This document shows positions 7,020 through 34,840 of a stretch of 64,000 bases of DNA, piece after piece; position 1 is the first letter of the stretch, and each line of letters opens with the position of its first letter. The position numbers and the translations under genes are program-made. The DNA is from Dehalococcoidia bacterium. Lineage in GTDB: Bacteria > Chloroflexota > Dehalococcoidia > Lucifugimonadales > VXLM01. The notes under the pieces were generated by a model. It worked only from the letters and a program-made list of their open reading frames with translations. It did no database searches and had not been told where the DNA came from. The stretch spans positions 779,720 to 843,719 of the forward strand of contig OZ244816.1 of NCBI GenBank assembly GCA_965220255.1. Direction: 5' to 3'.

Positions 7020-7056
7020 TGGGATGGTACGGGCCGGCTCGCTCCCCCTCTCTGTA

Positions 7057-7079
7057 TCTCTCCCCCGGCGAGGGAGAGA
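7057..7079. repeat. REP-B hairpin (tctctccc-ccggcga-gggagaga), uninterrupted copy
   Basis: Same hairpin family that is split by the IS at 13071 and the MITE at 9477. Confidence 0.7.
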
Positions 7080-7113
7080 CCATGGGTAATGATCTAGCAA
7101 CTACCTCCATCGG

Positions 7114-9348: not shown

Positions 9349-9476
9349 TTTTGTATTTTTTGTATAAGGGTCTCTGGAAGGTTGGGGTTGGAGGGTGGCG
9401 GTGGGGATTATACAGGATGTGGGGGACAGGGCTGTTGGCGGAAGTCCCCCTCTCTCTGTATCTCTCCCCCAGCGGG

Positions 9477-9754
9477 CTGACAGGGGTAGGCATTTGACCA
9501 TCAATCCGCTTCCACGAATGAGAAAAGAGCCCCTCACTGTCATTCGGAGCGCAGCGCAGCGGAGTCGAAGAATCTAAAATGCCCGTCCCAACGCATAGCT
9601 GACACGGAGAAGGTTTGTTTCTCGGTCACGATACAAGCGTGGCTCCGGCCGTACGGACTTGCGTTGATGGATTTTAGATTCCTCGCTCCGCTCGGAATGA
9701 CAGAGAGACGGGGCCGGATGGTAGACACAATTCTGTTTTGTCTACCCCTGTCAG
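9477..9754. mobile_element. MITE (278 bp) with the termini of the IS at 13071..14402; 11-bp TSD cccccagcggg
   Basis: Ends are ctgacaggggtaggcattt... and ...aaaacagaattgtgtctacccctgtcag. Direct repeats lie at 9466..9476 and 9755..9765. There is an internal REP-C inverted pair and no ORF. Confidence 0.7.
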
Positions 9755-9783
9755 CCCCCAGCGGGGGAGAGATTGTTTAATCT

Positions 9784-10949: not shown

Positions 10950-10969
10950 TCTCTCCCGCGAACGGGAGA
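10950..10969. repeat. REP-B-like hairpin (ctctcccg-cgaa-cgggagag)
   Basis: Same sequence as 34557..34580. Confidence 0.65.
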
Positions 10970-10975
10970 GGGGAT

Positions 10976-11002: not shown

Positions 11003-11047
11003 GTGGCTGTAATTGTTCAGTCTTGGTGAGGGGAACCGCGCCTCACA

Positions 11048-11077
11048 CGTAGGGGCGGTTCGCGAACCGCCCCTACG
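11048..11077. repeat. REP-E variant hairpin (cgtaggggcggttcg-cgaaccgcccctacg)
   Basis: Perfect 15-nt palindrome arms. Confidence 0.65.
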
Positions 11078-11181
11078 TGTTGGGACAAATCCAGCACATA
11101 GATATCATTAACTCTGAACAGTTGCCGGCGGGACGCGGTTGTGTGGGGTAAGATTCGCACGATGATGACGAGGAGGATGGA

Positions 11182-12428: not shown

Positions 12429-12962
12429 ATGTTAGGAAGAATGCTGGGCGCGGCCCGGTTGGATGCCGCCACTTACGAAGAGGTAGAGGCCGACAGCAAG
12501 GCTACCATTCAGGCGTTGATCGTGGTGGTTGTCGTCACGATCGCGAGTGTGGTCGGCGAGATGCTGGGTGGTGGAGATGACTTCGAGCTTGTCAATGCGC
12601 TGGTCATCGGAGTAATCCGAGGAGTGGTGAGCTGGGCCATATGGGCACTGATAACCTGGATTGTAGGCACCACGATATTGAATACGGAAGCAACAGAAGC
12701 CGACTGGGGACAGCTGGCGCGCTGCACGGGGTTCGCCCAGACGCCAGGGATTATCAATGTGTTCAGTTTCGTACCGGCGGTCGGGGGGCTGATCTCCGTG
12801 GCGGCATTTGTATGGACGTTCGTGGCAATGTTGGTTGCGGTCCGGCAGAGTCTGGACTACACGTCGACCTGGCGGGCGTTCACGGTGATCCTCATCGCGT
12901 TCATCCCGGTGGGCCTTCTCAACTTCATCGCATACTGGATATTGATAATCGCAGGCGCGTAG
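12429..12962 (+). CDS. Yip1-domain family membrane protein
   Basis: MLGRMLGAARLDAATYEEVEADSKATIQALIVV... then 4-5 TM segments; start at ATG 12429 preferred over 12366. Confidence 0.6.
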   Translation: MLGRMLGAARLDAATYEEVEADSKATIQALIVVVVVTIASVVGEMLGGGDDFELVNALVIGVIRGVVSWAIWALITWIVGTTILNTEATEADWGQLARCTGFAQTPGIINVFSFVPAVGGLISVAAFVWTFVAMLVAVRQSLDYTSTWRAFTVILIAFIPVGLLNFIAYWILIIAGA

Positions 12963-13070
12963 ATAGTCGCGGAGACGTTGTATAGGGCCCCGACAGGTAA
13001 CCGGTAGCCGTTCGTGGTGAGCCCTTCGACAACTGCAGGAACCCCCTCTCTGGATCTCTCCCCCGCCGGG

Positions 13071-14402
13071 CTGACAGGGGTAGGTATTTCGTATTTTAGG
13101 TATCAGTGCCATAGATCATCCTCAGATTTGGCGACGGTTCGGGCCAAGCTTCAGGAAGCAGCCAGACCCTCTGCCACAGCCTGCCTTTGAGCAACAGACG
13201 ATTCAGCCAAATGATGCCCTGACGCAATACGCTTACAATCCGTCTCGGTCTGTTTGTGGCACTTCGATGTGTGGGCGAGACAAACTTCGGAGGCGCTCTG
13301 AGACGACTAGGGTTTACGCCCAAGCCGCTGGCATCTTCGACTCTGGTCCCATATGCCAGCGCCAATAGAGTTGACACAGACAACACCAGCCAATGACGAC
13401 TGACCCGTTCGGGATCTGTCCGGCGAGTCTTCTGCCATTGCCACCCAACGCTCTTGATCGCTTTGAAGCCCAGTTCTATCCAGAAGCGAAGTGCGTACCA
13501 GCACACCCCAGCTTCAGCAGGTGGGAGATCTGTCATCACAACCCATGGCTCTTGTTGGTCTTTGTCCCAGACCACAATCATTGTCCCCCGACGGCGTATG
13601 CTTGTGGCCCTGAACGCGGTCCCACCACCAACCCATGCGTGACCCGGCCCTGGTACGAGATACCGCGCTGGCAGACGAGTCCCTCCATCAGGACAGAAGA
13701 CGGTGTTGATCGACTGTCGTACGTAGGGATGCCACCCCGAAGAGCGTATCTGCTCCCACAACCTCGGACTCCTCAGACCACGGTCGCACATCACCAGCAC
13801 AGTCTTGTCCTTTGGGACCGCCGAAGACAGCAACGCCAGCAAGTCCACCACAGGGGATATCCACTGTCCGGGACTGTTGGCGGGAAGAATGTGCCAGGCA
13901 ACCGGAATGGCACAACTGCGATAGACCACGCTTATGACTATGGAGTTTAGCTTGTCGGCCTTCATCGTCGGGTCTATAGCTAACACTAGCCTGTCCGACT
14001 GCCACAATGACAGTACCCACCTCAACAGCGGAACAAAGCACGACCTCACATCCAATTGCACTTGGCAGGGCTTAGAACGGTCTTGACCATCGTAGAGCCA
14101 CTCTCTGATGTACTGACGCAGACTGTTGTAGTTACCCATAACCGAAAGGGCTGCACTGACAGCGTTCTGGCAACTACTCCCGGCCAGTATGGTCCCGTAC
14201 ACCCACAGAACCAGTCCTTTTATCTGAGAGTGTCTGAGCTGAGGCATGTGTTGTTCGACAGTCTGGAGCATCTGGTAGCATTCAGGTGGGAGGCGCATGG
14301 CGAATCTCTGGCAACCTTTCTGTCTGATACCAAAAAGATGCCAGAAACCCATGCGCTTTCCAAGTTCTTATACTTATTTTATATTTTACCTACCCCTGTC
14401 AG
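13071..14402 (-). mobile_element. Intact IS4-superfamily insertion sequence (1332 bp), 16-bp perfect terminal IRs ctgacaggggtaggta, 11-bp TSD cccccgccggg
   Basis: IRs at 13071..13086 and 14387..14402. Direct repeats at 13060..13070 and 14403..14413. Single transposase ORF. CTGAC termini as in IS10/IS50. Confidence 0.8.
13096..14352 (-). CDS. DDE transposase, IS4 superfamily
   Basis: 418 aa; LAIDPT (D), VLVMCDRG (D), YALRFWIELGFKAIK = Y-x2-R-x3-E-x6-K signature. Confidence 0.85.
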   Translation of the reverse strand: MGFWHLFGIRQKGCQRFAMRLPPECYQMLQTVEQHMPQLRHSQIKGLVLWVYGTILAGSSCQNAVSAALSVMGNYNSLRQYIREWLYDGQDRSKPCQVQLDVRSCFVPLLRWVLSLWQSDRLVLAIDPTMKADKLNSIVISVVYRSCAIPVAWHILPANSPGQWISPVVDLLALLSSAVPKDKTVLVMCDRGLRSPRLWEQIRSSGWHPYVRQSINTVFCPDGGTRLPARYLVPGPGHAWVGGGTAFRATSIRRRGTMIVVWDKDQQEPWVVMTDLPPAEAGVCWYALRFWIELGFKAIKSVGWQWQKTRRTDPERVSRHWLVLSVSTLLALAYGTRVEDASGLGVNPSRLRAPPKFVSPTHRSATNRPRRIVSVLRQGIIWLNRLLLKGRLWQRVWLLPEAWPEPSPNLRMIYGTDT

Positions 14403-14544
14403 CCCCCGCCGGGGGAGAGATCAGGGGTTTTTCGTCGTTGCGCTCCTCAGGAGGACAGGCAATTCCTGCACATCTCACCGAGTCTGAGCAGTTGCACGAT
14501 GGGCTAGTGTCTCGTTTCGTAAGTTCGCCATGTAATTCACAGCA

Positions 14545-14605
14545 CCCTTCGACAAGCTCAGGGTGAACGGGATAATCAAAATACGTTCGTGGTGAGCTTG
14601 TCGAA
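14545..14605. repeat. REP-D copy with inverted partner (ttcgacaagctca ... tgagcttgtcgaa)
   Basis: cccttcgacaagctcagggtgaacgg + reverse arm 14593..14605. Confidence 0.65.
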
Positions 14606-14675
14606 CCACGAAGAGCAGGTCTAACGAGACAACCAATTAATACGATGAACTTGCGAAACGGGATACTAGCGCCAA

Positions 14676-15758
14676 CTACCCGTAGCGTTCGCGGAGGATG
14701 CGGGCGGCTTCGGCCTCGTTTTTGAGCTTGAGGTAGGGTTCTTCGAGGGGCATGTCGATGGCGAGGCCGGGTGCGAAGCCGCAGTCGGGGTTGAGGCTGA
14801 GGCGGGCGGGGTCGACGTGCTTGATGGCCTGTTCGACGCGGGCGACGATTTCCTCGGTGGCGTCGATCTTCTCGAAGCGGCACTCGACGCAGCCGAGGCC
14901 GATGAGCTTGTCTTCGGGCAGCTCCTTGAGGATGGCGACGTCTCCGGCGACGGGGATGCTGAACTCCATGACGTACTGGTCGACGTTGATCTTCTTCATG
15001 GTCTCGATGATGGGCTCGTAGCCGCCCTCGGCACCCCAGCCCTGCCTTCCCCAGTTGCGGCGGCAGAGGTGGAGGGCGGTCTGGACGCCGTCGATGCCGT
15101 CGAGTATCTCGTTGATCTTGTCGGCGGCGAAGTCCATCTCGTAGCGGGGGTCGTCGAAGGTGTCACGGTAGGCGGGGTCGACGAGGACGCAGAGGTGTGG
15201 CTCGTCGATCTGGACGACGGTGACGCCGGTGTCCTGGAGGGCGAGAAGTTCGTCATGGAGGATGGGGACGAGTGCTTCGATGAATTGGTCGCGGGTCGGG
15301 TAGGCCTTCTTTGAGACGGCTTCTTCCCAGAGGCGGACTCCAAGCAGGTAGGGAGAGGGTACGCAGACCTTGGTGAGGCGGTCGGTGGCGTTCACGAGGA
15401 AGCGGGCCTCCTGTGCGATGAGGCCGGGGTTGACGACCTCCATGGGCTCGGTGATTGAGATTCCCCAGCGACGTGGCTCCTCGCGGAGGTCGGCGGAGAA
15501 GCCGGTGGCGATGTCGGCGACGATGTGGGTGTAGGCGTGCCTGCGCCACTCGCCGTCGCTGACGAGGTCGAGTCCGGCCTGCTCCTGGATGGCGATGGCG
15601 TATCGGACGGCGGCGTCCATGCGCGGGGACGCGGCGGCCTTGGCGGACTCGATGCCGGGAGTGTCGGGGAGCATGTCCTGCACCATGAGGGGTCGGGGGA
15701 GGCTGCCGACGACGCCGGAGGCGAAGGGGACGGCGGTGTATTCGGGGGAGATGGTCAT
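14676..15758 (-). CDS. Cobalamin-independent methionine synthase (MetE C-terminal domain-like, Meth_synt_2) family protein
   Basis: 360 aa; GSLPRP, SDGEWRR, LHLCRRNWG motifs of the family. Confidence 0.75.
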   Translation of the reverse strand: MTISPEYTAVPFASGVVGSLPRPLMVQDMLPDTPGIESAKAAASPRMDAAVRYAIAIQEQAGLDLVSDGEWRRHAYTHIVADIATGFSADLREEPRRWGISITEPMEVVNPGLIAQEARFLVNATDRLTKVCVPSPYLLGVRLWEEAVSKKAYPTRDQFIEALVPILHDELLALQDTGVTVVQIDEPHLCVLVDPAYRDTFDDPRYEMDFAADKINEILDGIDGVQTALHLCRRNWGRQGWGAEGGYEPIIETMKKINVDQYVMEFSIPVAGDVAILKELPEDKLIGLGCVECRFEKIDATEEIVARVEQAIKHVDPARLSLNPDCGFAPGLAIDMPLEEPYLKLKNEAEAARILRERYG

Positions 15759-24048: not shown

Positions 24049-24075
24049 TCTCTCCCCCGATCGACGGGGGAGAGA
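24049..24075. repeat. REP-B hairpin (tctctccccc-gatcgac-gggggagaga), 18 nt after the SBP stop; may act as terminator
   Basis: 10-bp GC-rich stem followed by cctttg. Confidence 0.6.
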
Positions 24076-34556: not shown

Positions 34557-34580
34557 ACCCTCTCCCGCGAACGGGAGAGG
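34557..34580. repeat. REP-B-like hairpin (ccctctcccg-cgaa-cgggagaggg)
   Basis: Directly abuts the degenerate left end of the MITE at 34581. Confidence 0.65.
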
Positions 34581-34807
34581 GGGTAGGCATTTGGTGTTCC
34601 ATACTTGCGAGTTATAGCCCCATCACTGTCATTCCGAATGTAGCGAAGCGGAGTGAGGAATCTAAAATGTTCGCCCTTCAAACCGAGCCCTGCACTCTGA
34701 AACATCCATGACGATGGCACAGCATTTTAGATTCCTCGCTTCGCTCGGAATGACAGACAGGTAGGGCCCGGAACATAGCTATAACTTCTTTTGCCTACCC
34801 CTGTCAG
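34581..34807. mobile_element. MITE related to 9477..9754, left terminus degenerate
   Basis: Left end ggtaggcatttgg lacks the ctgaca start. Right end is ...ttgcctacccctgtcag. Same internal REP-C inverted pair (gtcattccgaatg..gaatctaaaatg / cattttagattcc..cggaatgacag). Confidence 0.55.
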
Positions 34808-34840
34808 CCCGCGACGGGAGAGGGGGAAATCTGCCACTTC

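What the first reader, a model, noticed from the sequence alone, without database searches (positions are those of the whole stretch)
13060..14413. Intact IS4-superfamily element inserted precisely in the apical loop of a REP-like hairpin, with an 11-bp target duplication
The IS spans 13071..14402 (1332 bp). It has 16-bp perfect inverted termini (ctgacaggggtaggta) that begin with CTGAC as in IS10/IS50. Its one transposase carries D, D and Y-x2-R-x3-E-x6-K signatures. The element is flanked by the direct repeat cccccgccggg (13060..13070 and 14403..14413). Removing the IS and one repeat copy restores gatctctccccc-gcc-gggggagagatc, a perfect 12-bp-stem hairpin of the REP-B family. Uninterrupted REP-B copies exist at 7057 and 24049. 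The duplicated 11 nt are the top of the stem plus the loop. REP-targeting is known for a few elements of other IS families (IS3 and IS110 relatives such as IS1397 and ISPpu9/10). I am not aware of it for a CTGAC-ended IS4-type element.
Basis: partly seen in the sequence, partly recalled or inferred. Interest (0 to 1): 0.6.

Follow-up and report, generated by a model that had tools for sequence, protein, structure and literature searches.

The report
Hairpin-targeting IS4-family insertion sequence
An intact 1.3-kb jumping gene of the IS4 family sits exactly in the tip of a small repeated DNA hairpin, and about 60 related copies in other Dehalococcoidia genomes do the same, so the targeting is real; the behaviour is already known from a few other insertion sequences.

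Summary
A 1332-bp IS (13071..14402) has perfect 16-bp inverted ends and one DDE/YREK transposase. An exact 11-bp duplication flanks it, and removing the IS restores a 12-bp-stem hairpin.

The targeting is not a coincidence.
- Two MITE-like derivatives in the window sit in the same hairpin family.
- A 100%-identical copy on a metagenome contig also splits such a hairpin.
- Among about 85 related copies from more than 16 Dehalococcoidia MAGs, I found 62 sites with an exact duplication. In the 59 scored, 49 lie in a palindrome with a stem of at least 8 bp. In 44 the duplication centre is within 1.5 nt of the axis.
- The 19 hairpins of another family in the window are never hit.
- The symmetric target consensus is T|C(C/T)C-N5-G(G/A)G|A.

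The transposase is IS4-family by motif, spacing and duplication length. Its best fold match is Tn5 transposase, but it shows no sequence similarity to IS10/IS50. Its nearest named relatives are cyanobacterial.

REP targeting by an IS4-family element (ISRm22) was published in 2006. I rate this a new member of a known kind.

The parts
13071..14402 (-). Complete insertion sequence, 1332 bp, with the transposase on the minus strand.
   Evidence: A copy with a 100%-identical protein lies at another site in L001.
14387..14402 (-). Terminal inverted repeat upstream of the transposase gene (IRL by convention), ctgacaggggtaggta read inward.
   Evidence: The motif CTGACAGGGGTA(G/T)G is conserved in all related copies.
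13071..13086 (+). Terminal inverted repeat downstream of the gene (IRR), ctgacaggggtaggta.
13096..14352 (-). Transposase ORF of 418 aa. The real start is probably M19 (ATG at 14298, giving 400 aa). Catalytic residues are D127, D190, E293 and Y286/R289/E293/K300.
   Evidence: Most homologues are 400 aa and the consensus begins at MRLP. The AF2 model's best PDB fold match is Tn5 transposase.
13060..13070 (.). Target-site duplication, left copy, cccccgccggg.
14403..14413 (.). Target-site duplication, right copy, cccccgccggg.
13053..13070 (.). Left part of the split hairpin: the 12-nt left arm gatctctccccc, the gcc loop and the first three G of the right arm.
   Evidence: (pair I2). Fold of the rejoined site.
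14403..14422 (.). Right part of the split hairpin: the duplicated apex plus the rest of the right arm, ggagagatc.
9477..9754 (.). MITE-like non-autonomous derivative of 278 bp with no ORF. Its ends match the IS ends over about 19-20 nt, end-specifically. It sits in the hairpin atctctccccc-agc-gggggagagat with the 11-bp duplication cccccagcggg (9466-9476 and 9755-9765).
34575..34807 (.). Second MITE-like copy. Its right end is intact (ctgacaggggtaggca). At the left end, ctgaca is replaced so that a complete hairpin (34557-34580) abuts ggtaggca. The right flank cccgcgacgggagaggg (34808-34824) is a half hairpin.
   Evidence: 77% identity to the first MITE.
7055..7081 (.). Unoccupied hairpin of the same family (tatctctcccccggcgagggagagacc).
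   Evidence: It lies between long ORFs.
10951..10970 (.). Unoccupied hairpin, ctctcccgcgaacgggagag.
24050..24074 (.). Unoccupied hairpin, ctctcccccgatcgacgggggagag.

Best explanation
This is a functional-looking IS4-family insertion sequence of an unnamed Dehalococcoidia lineage. It moves by DDE cut-and-paste transposition and makes 11-bp staggered cuts in the target.

Its transposase prefers a short, GC-rich, two-fold symmetric target, about 5'-cTCt|C(C/T)C-N5-G(G/A)G|aGAg-3'. That sequence is presented by the apex of one particular family of extragenic hairpin repeats (CTCTCCC(CC)-loop-(GG)GGGAGAG). Nearly every insertion of the IS and its MITE derivatives therefore splits such a hairpin at or one base from its axis.

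Shown here:
- the element's anatomy;
- the 11-bp duplication;
- the recurrence of the same target in about 60 independent insertions;
- the specificity for one hairpin family over another.

Inferred:
- that a symmetric transposase dimer reads duplex sequence, as in Tn5/Tn10, rather than an extruded hairpin;
- that landing in extragenic repeats keeps insertions harmless;
- that the window copy supplies the transposase for the two MITEs.
For: 1. Anatomy.

2. Second and third insertions in the window.
   - The MITE at 9477-9754 sits in a hairpin with a different loop (agc). It has the direct 11-bp repeat cccccagcggg on both sides. The repeat is direct, not inverted, so the arms are target DNA and not part of the element.
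   - The MITE at 34575-34807 also lies in a hairpin.

3. L001 carries a transposase 100% identical in protein at another site. Both its flanks are half hairpins.

4. Relatives.
   - 80 loci from more than 16 Dehalococcoidia MAGs keep the end motif and a length of 1321-1357 bp.
   - 56 loci have an exact 11-bp duplication, 2 have 12 bp and 6 have one mismatch.
   - Three closer relatives (87-89% aa) are all exact and centred.

5. Geometry of the 59 exact sites.
   - 49 lie in a palindrome with a stem of at least 8 bp.
   - 44 have the duplication centre within 1.5 nt of the axis. Offsets were -1 in 13 sites, 0 in 15 and +1 in 15.
   - The binomial P is about 1e-94 against the window's palindrome density.

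6. Symmetrised consensus. C at duplication position 1 in 110 of 112, C at position 3 in 100 of 112, and C at -2 in 104 of 112. Six exact-duplication sites have no palindrome but keep the C...G frame in most cases (L014, L057, L072, L081), which points to sequence reading.

7. Family specificity in the window. 3 of 6 CTCTCCC-type hairpins are occupied against 0 of 19 ATTCCCGC/ATACCGGC-type hairpins. The hypergeometric P is 20/2300 = 0.009 by my arithmetic.

8. Fold. The best PDB matches of the AF2 model are Tn5 transposase 4dm0_A and 1mus_A, at E about 1e-6.
Against: - I did no transposition assay.
- I found no empty allele of this exact site. The closest orthologous locus, L082, lacks the hairpin altogether. 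Short-read contigs gave no clean IS-skipping joint.
- About 16-18 of 79 related copies have non-matching flanks. I attribute this to recombination between copies or to composite elements, without proof for each.
- The target consensus comes mostly from near-identical repeats, so conservation in the arms may be passive.
- Seventeen bare CCC-N5-GGG sites outside hairpins in the window are unoccupied. Most look genic, so either the arms or selection could explain this.
- The AF2 model is only moderately confident (pLDDT 68).
Confidence: 0.85

Rival explanations
1. The transposase, or a host factor it uses, recognises structure. On this view it binds the hairpin as an extruded cruciform or as a single-strand stem-loop at replication forks, not as duplex sequence, and inserts at the tip.
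For: - The restored sites fold stably as ssDNA, at -16.8 and -11.5 kcal/mol with z = -4.4 and -5.1.
- 49 of 59 sites are long palindromes and the insertions cluster at the axis.
- Bare CCC-N5-GGG sites without arms are unoccupied in the window.
Against: - Nineteen equally good hairpins of another family in the same window are never hit.
- Six exact-duplication sites have no palindrome and four have only 6-7-bp stems.
- The insertion frame follows sequence (C at 1, G at 11, C at -2) rather than the geometric centre. It is shifted by +1 or -1 in hairpins with 3-nt loops and centred with 5-nt loops.
- IS4-family transposases are known to act on duplex targets. This rests on established knowledge of Tn5/Tn10, not on a test here.
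Confidence: 0.12
2. There is no real target preference. Insertion is near-random, and only copies that landed in neutral extragenic repeats survived selection.
For: - All occupied and empty hairpins are extragenic.
- Non-hairpin CCC-N5-GGG sites are mostly inside ORFs.
Against: - Survival cannot explain single-base positional precision at the axis (44 of 59 within 1.5 nt).
- It cannot explain the conserved C...G frame.
- It cannot explain the avoidance of another, more numerous extragenic hairpin family.
Confidence: 0.02
3. The hairpin arms belong to the element as long terminal inverted repeats of about 34 bp, and the 11-bp repeat is an illusion created by a palindrome.
For: The 32-nt arms that include the hairpin halves are 81% complementary (pair I1).
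Against: - The loop is repeated directly, not inverted: gcc/gcc for the IS and agc/agc for the MITE.
- The arm sequences differ between copies while the 16-bp ends stay constant.
- The two flanks are out of register as inverted repeats (18 nt against 20 nt).
- Empty hairpins exist without the IS.
Confidence: 0.01

Closest known systems
ISRm22 of Sinorhizobium meliloti 1021 (IS4 family, IS4Sa subgroup). Tobes & Pareja 2006, PMC1525189; De Palmenaer et al. 2008, PMC2266710.
   Same: - It is an IS4-family DDE/YREK element.
- All of its copies sit in REP palindromes with the insertion point at the palindrome axis.
- Some of its copies have non-matching direct repeats, explained by recombination between copies. 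The same pattern appears here.
   Different: - ISRm22 makes 6-bp direct repeats according to Tobes & Pareja, against 11 bp here.
- The host phylum differs (Alphaproteobacteria against Chloroflexota).
- No Sinorhizobium record was among the tblastn hits at E <= 1e-3, so the two are not close relatives.
- IS4Sa ends start with CA, whereas these start with CT.
IS10/Tn10 and IS50/Tn5 (IS4 family, IS10 and IS50 subgroups).
   Same: - The ends start with CT(GA).
- The size of 1.33 kb falls in the IS10 range.
- There is a single ORF with DDE plus YREK.
- These elements prefer short symmetric GC-flanked target sequences (Tn5 data cited).
- Tn5 transposase is the best fold match.
   Different: - They make 9-bp and 8-9-bp duplications, against 11 bp here.
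- There is no detectable sequence similarity.
- No Tn5-specific Pfam domains were found.
- To my knowledge they are not reported to be REP-restricted.
IS1397/ISKpn1 (IS3 family) and IS621, ISPpu9, ISPpu10, ISPa11 (IS110 family), which are REP-targeting ISs.
   Same: They insert at a fixed place inside REP palindromes.
   Different: - They have unrelated transposases.
- IS110-family elements use a DEDD recombinase and a bridge or seek RNA to choose the target (abstracts).
- Their duplications are 2-4 bp.
- IS110-type elements have no terminal inverted repeats.
Cyanobacterial relatives on Nostoc plasmids (annotated only as 'transposase'; L089, L090).
   Same: - Protein identity is 35-36% over the full length.
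- Their size is 1357-1360 bp.
- Their ends, CTTTCAAGGGTAGGGG, match at 11 of 16 positions.
- Both have exact 11-bp duplications.
   Different: Their two targets (aggggccaccg and agggggagcag) are G-rich but are not hairpins.

Membership tests
IS4 family (sensu De Palmenaer et al. 2008) | DDE triad with spacing D(60-110)D(100-150)E. | tested here: met
   D127, D190 and E293 give spacers of 62 and 102 residues. All three are invariant in 34 homologues.
IS4 family | Y(2)R(3)E(6)K motif. | tested here: met
   The motif is Y286-A-L-R289-F-W-I-E293-L-G-F-K-A-I-K300. Y286, R289, E293 and K300 are all invariant.
IS4 family | A single-ORF transposase and terminal inverted repeats. | tested here: met
   There is one long ORF with a DDE hit and 16-bp perfect inverted repeats.
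IS4 family | A target duplication of about one helical turn (7-13 bp). | tested here: met
   The duplication is 11 bp here and in 56 relatives, and 12 bp in 2.
IS4 family | Curated profile score (NCBIfam IS4 equivalogs). | tested here: not met
   NF033591 scored 90.6 bits against a cutoff of 152, and NF033592 scored 30.6 against 115. The protein is a divergent member. Pfam DDE_Tnp_1 is above its cutoff (39.9 against 23).
IS4 family | A Tn5-transposase-like fold. | tested here: met
   The best Foldseek PDB hits are 4dm0_A and 1mus_A (Tn5 transposase), at E about 1e-6, probability 1.0 and TM 0.47. The model has pLDDT 68.
IS10 or IS50 subgroup | A 9-bp (IS10) or 8-9-bp (IS50) duplication and sequence similarity to the IS10 or IS50 transposase. 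| tested here: not met
   The duplication is 11 bp. No IS10/IS50-type hit appeared in plasmids or in PDB sequences. Only the CT end and the size fit.
REP-targeting IS ('type 1 association' of Tobes & Pareja 2006) | [quoted passage not shown] | tested here: met
   This holds for 3 of 3 IS-type ends in the window, for L001, and for 49 of 59 exact-duplication sites in relatives.
REP element (for the target hairpin) | A short imperfect palindrome that is extragenic and repeated. | tested here: met
   Six copies lie in 64 kb, all between long ORFs. The same family is present in more than 16 related genomes.
REP element (for the target hairpin) | A genome-wide copy number in the hundreds and an associated RAYT (Y1) transposase. 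| not testable with these tools

The most novel reading that the evidence does not exclude
The Dehalococcoidia elements may form an undescribed IS4 subgroup. Its traits would be a size of about 1.33 kb, CTGACAGGGGTAGG ends and an 11-bp duplication. On this reading it has co-evolved with one conserved REP family as a dedicated safe harbour across many species. Its transposase would read the arms or the extruded hairpin as well as the 15-bp core, and its MITEs and composite derivatives would help spread or remodel the hairpins themselves.
Probability: 0.2. Interest if true: 0.5.

Novelty: new member of a known kind. Interest (0 to 1): 0.3.

Why it matters
The finding adds a large, clean data set on target choice. 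It comprises about 60 independent insertions with exact duplications in complete long-read MAGs. The lineage is an uncultured, sponge-associated Dehalococcoidia group in which mobile elements are essentially undescribed.

It shows that an IS4-family transposase can restrict itself to one repeat family through a simple symmetric 15-bp rule. That rule gives annotators a way to recognise these ISs, their MITEs and the rearrangements they cause.

It does not reveal a new mechanism. REP targeting, including by an IS4-family member, has been in the literature since 2006.

Tried and rejected
- An exact look-up of the transposase returned only one readable contig, L001.
- The search for an empty site gave nothing usable.
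  - The neighbouring Meth_synt_2 ORF was not on record by exact sequence.
  - Its 95% orthologue locus L082 has the same gene pair but only a 136-bp spacer, with neither hairpin nor IS. It cannot serve as an empty site.
  - The 82% orthologues (L083, L084) are not syntenic.
  - Laying Logan contigs of four runs gave no clean 1343-bp skip.
- A degenerate 30-mer of both IS ends found nothing in JGI metagenome contigs.
- A profile search of PDB sequences found nothing. Only the fold search did.
- I considered and rejected three readings:
  - a 9-bp duplication with 17-bp inverted repeats, because L016 and L029 have duplications that start with G;
  - hairpin arms as part of the IS, because the loops are repeated directly;
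  - orientation-dependent offset, because offsets -1 and +1 are balanced at 13 and 15 relative to IS orientation.
- I looked for reciprocal flank pairs that would prove IS-mediated inversions among the copies without duplications. I found only reverse-complement matches of repeat-derived 11-mers (for example L027 and L059), which are not conclusive.

Full report
**Observation**

Reading window 12900-14600 confirms the finding base for base.
- A 1332-bp element spans 13071..14402.
- It is bounded by perfect 16-bp inverted repeats, ctgacaggggtaggta (pair I1).
- The end motif has 5 matches in the window, allowing up to 3 mismatches, against 0.35 expected by chance.
- The 11-mer cccccgccggg lies immediately outside both ends (13060-13070 and 14403-14413).
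- Joining the flanks restores gatctctccccc-gcc-gggggagagatc. As single-stranded DNA this folds at -16.8 kcal/mol with z = -4.4.

The only long ORF with a family hit is 13096..14352 on the minus strand, 418 aa.
- It matches Pfam DDE_Tnp_1 at 5e-10, above the cutoff.
- It matches NCBIfam IS4 models below their cutoffs, 90.6 bits against 152.
- Homologues are mostly 400 aa and their consensus starts at residue 19. The true start is probably the ATG at 14298.

**Is the hairpin hit a coincidence?**

No. The same end motif occurs three more times in the window.

At 9477-9754 there is a 278-bp ORF-less element.
- Its first and last 19-20 nt match the corresponding left and right IS ends, end-specifically.
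- It sits in atctctccccc-agc-gggggagagat.
- It is flanked by the direct 11-mer cccccagcggg.
- The asymmetric loop (agc here, gcc at the IS) is repeated directly, not inverted. The arms are therefore duplicated target DNA and not long inverted repeats of the element.

A second MITE-like copy lies at 34575-34807.
- Its right end is intact and abuts cccgcgacgggagaggg.
- Its left end is remodelled behind a complete hairpin.

A transposase 100% identical in protein lies on an ENA metagenome contig, L001. It is again flanked by two half hairpins.

**Relatives**

The transposase has more than 1000 homologues in metagenomic proteins. A scan of species-representative genomes returned 80 loci. All are from Dehalococcoidia MAGs, many of them complete long-read chromosomes, at 64-81% amino-acid identity.
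- All keep CTGACAGGGGTA(G/T)G-type ends and a length of 1321-1357 bp.
- 50 loci have an exact 11-bp duplication at the innermost ends.
- Six more have one when an outer end is used. Five of these are L048-L050, L053 and L054, in a genome that carries a 1409-bp composite variant. The sixth is L019, a 1393-bp unit.
- Two have 12 bp and six have one mismatch.
- Three closer relatives (87-89% identity) are exact and centred.

I scored 59 exact sites, including the window's IS and first MITE.
- 49 lie in a palindrome with a stem of at least 8 bp and at most one mismatch.
- 44 have the duplication centre within 1.5 nt of the axis.

The window contains 80 such palindromes in 64 kb, so the chance per insertion is 0.00375. 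That gives a binomial P of about 1e-94. About 16-18 copies have non-matching flanks that are still half hairpins. The same was seen for 3 of 9 ISRm22 copies and attributed to recombination between copies.

**What is recognised?**

The symmetrised target is about cTCt|C(C/T)C-N5-G(G/A)G|aGAg.
- C at duplication position 1 occurs in 110 of 112.
- C at position 3 occurs in 100 of 112.
- C at -2 occurs in 104 of 112.

Hairpins with a 5-nt loop between CCC and GGG are hit exactly on the axis. Hairpins with a 3-nt loop are hit one base to either side. Offsets -1 and +1 occur 13 and 15 times relative to IS orientation, so there is no orientation bias. In the window's own hairpin type (five C, 3-nt loop) all five independent insertions use the shifted frame. 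These are the window IS, the MITE at 9477, L010, L039 and L042. The centred frame would put T at -2.

Six exact-duplication sites have no palindrome, yet most keep the C...G frame, for example ccc-gtcta-ggg in L057.

In the window, 3 of 6 CTCTCCC-type hairpins are occupied. None of the 19 hairpins of the ATTCCCGC/ATACCGGC family is occupied. The hypergeometric P is 20/2300 = 0.009 by my arithmetic.

Together this favours reading of a short symmetric duplex sequence by a dimeric transposase. That is the mode established for Tn5 and Tn10 (background knowledge; Tn5 data quoted). It argues against generic hairpin recognition. One caveat remains. Seventeen bare CCC-N5-GGG sites outside hairpins are unoccupied. 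Most look genic, so a contribution of the arms, or of structure, is not excluded.

**Family placement**

By the criteria of De Palmenaer et al. 2008 the element is an IS4-family member.
- The spacers are D127-62-D190-102-E293.
- The YREK signature is Y286(2)R289(3)E293(6)K300. All these residues are invariant.
- It has a single ORF.
- Its duplication is about one helical turn.

An AF2 model (pLDDT 68, pTM 0.70) has Tn5 transposase as its best PDB fold match (4dm0_A and 1mus_A, E about 1e-6).

The suggested kinship with IS10/IS50 is not borne out.
- The duplication is 11 bp, not 9 or 8-9.
- A PDB sequence-profile search finds nothing.
- tblastn against 72,556 plasmids finds only cyanobacterial, Methylomagnum, Deinococcus and similar transposases, with none of IS10/IS50 type.

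Two Nostoc plasmid relatives (35-36% identity) are 1357-1360 bp. They end in CTTTCAAGGGTAGGGG and have exact 11-bp duplications at G-rich targets that are not hairpins. The 11-bp stagger and the CT..CA.GGGTAGG end are therefore traits of a wider clade. Strict hairpin landing is documented here for the Dehalococcoidia branch.

**Context**

The host is an uncultured, sponge-associated Dehalococcoidia. This rests on earlier notes, the titles of the relatives and sponge metagenome runs.

The IS lies between convergent genes. One is a Yip1-like membrane protein ending at 12962. The other is a cobalamin-independent methionine-synthase-II-like gene ending at 14676. Both are supported by the gene calls of the orthologous locus L082.

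In the probable source sample, a 3250-nt contig crosses the whole IS without differences, at the same depth (5.6) as the unique flanks. The full-length IS is therefore probably single-copy in this genome, and it would be the transposase source for the MITEs (inference).

**Comparison with what is known, and verdict**

Tobes & Pareja 2006 (PMC1525189) described REP targeting by ISs of five families.
- For the IS4 family, the example is ISRm22, with 10 of 10 copies at the palindrome axis and 6-bp repeats.
- De Palmenaer et al. 2008 place ISRm22 in subgroup IS4Sa and note its target-arm conservation.

Earlier notes of this scan report the same behaviour in other Dehalococcoidia windows. I treated them as leads and tested the claim independently.

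It is a new, unnamed member of a known kind, not a new mechanism.

Noticed in passing
window 9466-9765: A 278-bp MITE-like element carries the IS ends. It has its own 11-bp duplication, cccccagcggg, in a hairpin of the same family. Its interior is a long inverted pair (cactgtcattcggag...ctccgaatgacag).
   Followed up: yes
window 34557-34826: A second MITE-like copy (77% identical to the first) has lost ctgaca at its left end. A complete hairpin now abuts ggtaggca. This looks like short-patch repair or conversion that immobilised the element.
   Followed up: partly
window, 19 sites (e.g. 5178, 10979, 15849, 26131, 55331): A second, more numerous hairpin repeat family, ATTCCCGC-N4-GCGGGAAT with ATACCGGCC variants, is never occupied by the IS or the MITEs.
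   Followed up: partly
window 14543-14612 and 13009-13039: A very high-copy repeat (cccttcgacaagctcagggtgaacg...cgttcgtggtgagc) shows word depth above 1000 in sponge metagenomes. The orthologous spacer in L082 has one copy. In the window, the REP-B hairpin, the IS and about 120 bp appear nested inside it.
   Followed up: partly
window 11044-11079: A perfect 36-bp palindrome, acacgtaggggcggttcgcgaaccgcccctacgtgt (18-bp stem, no loop). Related aggggcgg...ccgcccct units flank IS copies in L001 and L057.
   Followed up: no
L048-L050, L053, L054 (MAG CBDHFB010000016.1), locus positions 419-1828: A composite 1409-bp variant has an outer perfect end, 78 bp that include a captured half hairpin, and then an inner mutated end (CTTACAGG). 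Exact 11-bp duplications exist only for the outer end, so the composite itself transposes. Similar tandem ends occur in L019, L025, L028, L030, L031, L038 and L058.
   Followed up: partly
L027, L059, L031, L033, L040 (related MAGs): In copies without a duplication, the flanking 11-mers are reverse complements of each other or of another copy's flanks. This suggests IS-mediated rearrangements among copies in identical repeat subtypes.
   Followed up: partly
window 13393-13950 (+): A 185-aa ORF antisense to the transposase, together with several others inside the IS, looks like a by-product of GC-rich composition.
   Followed up: no
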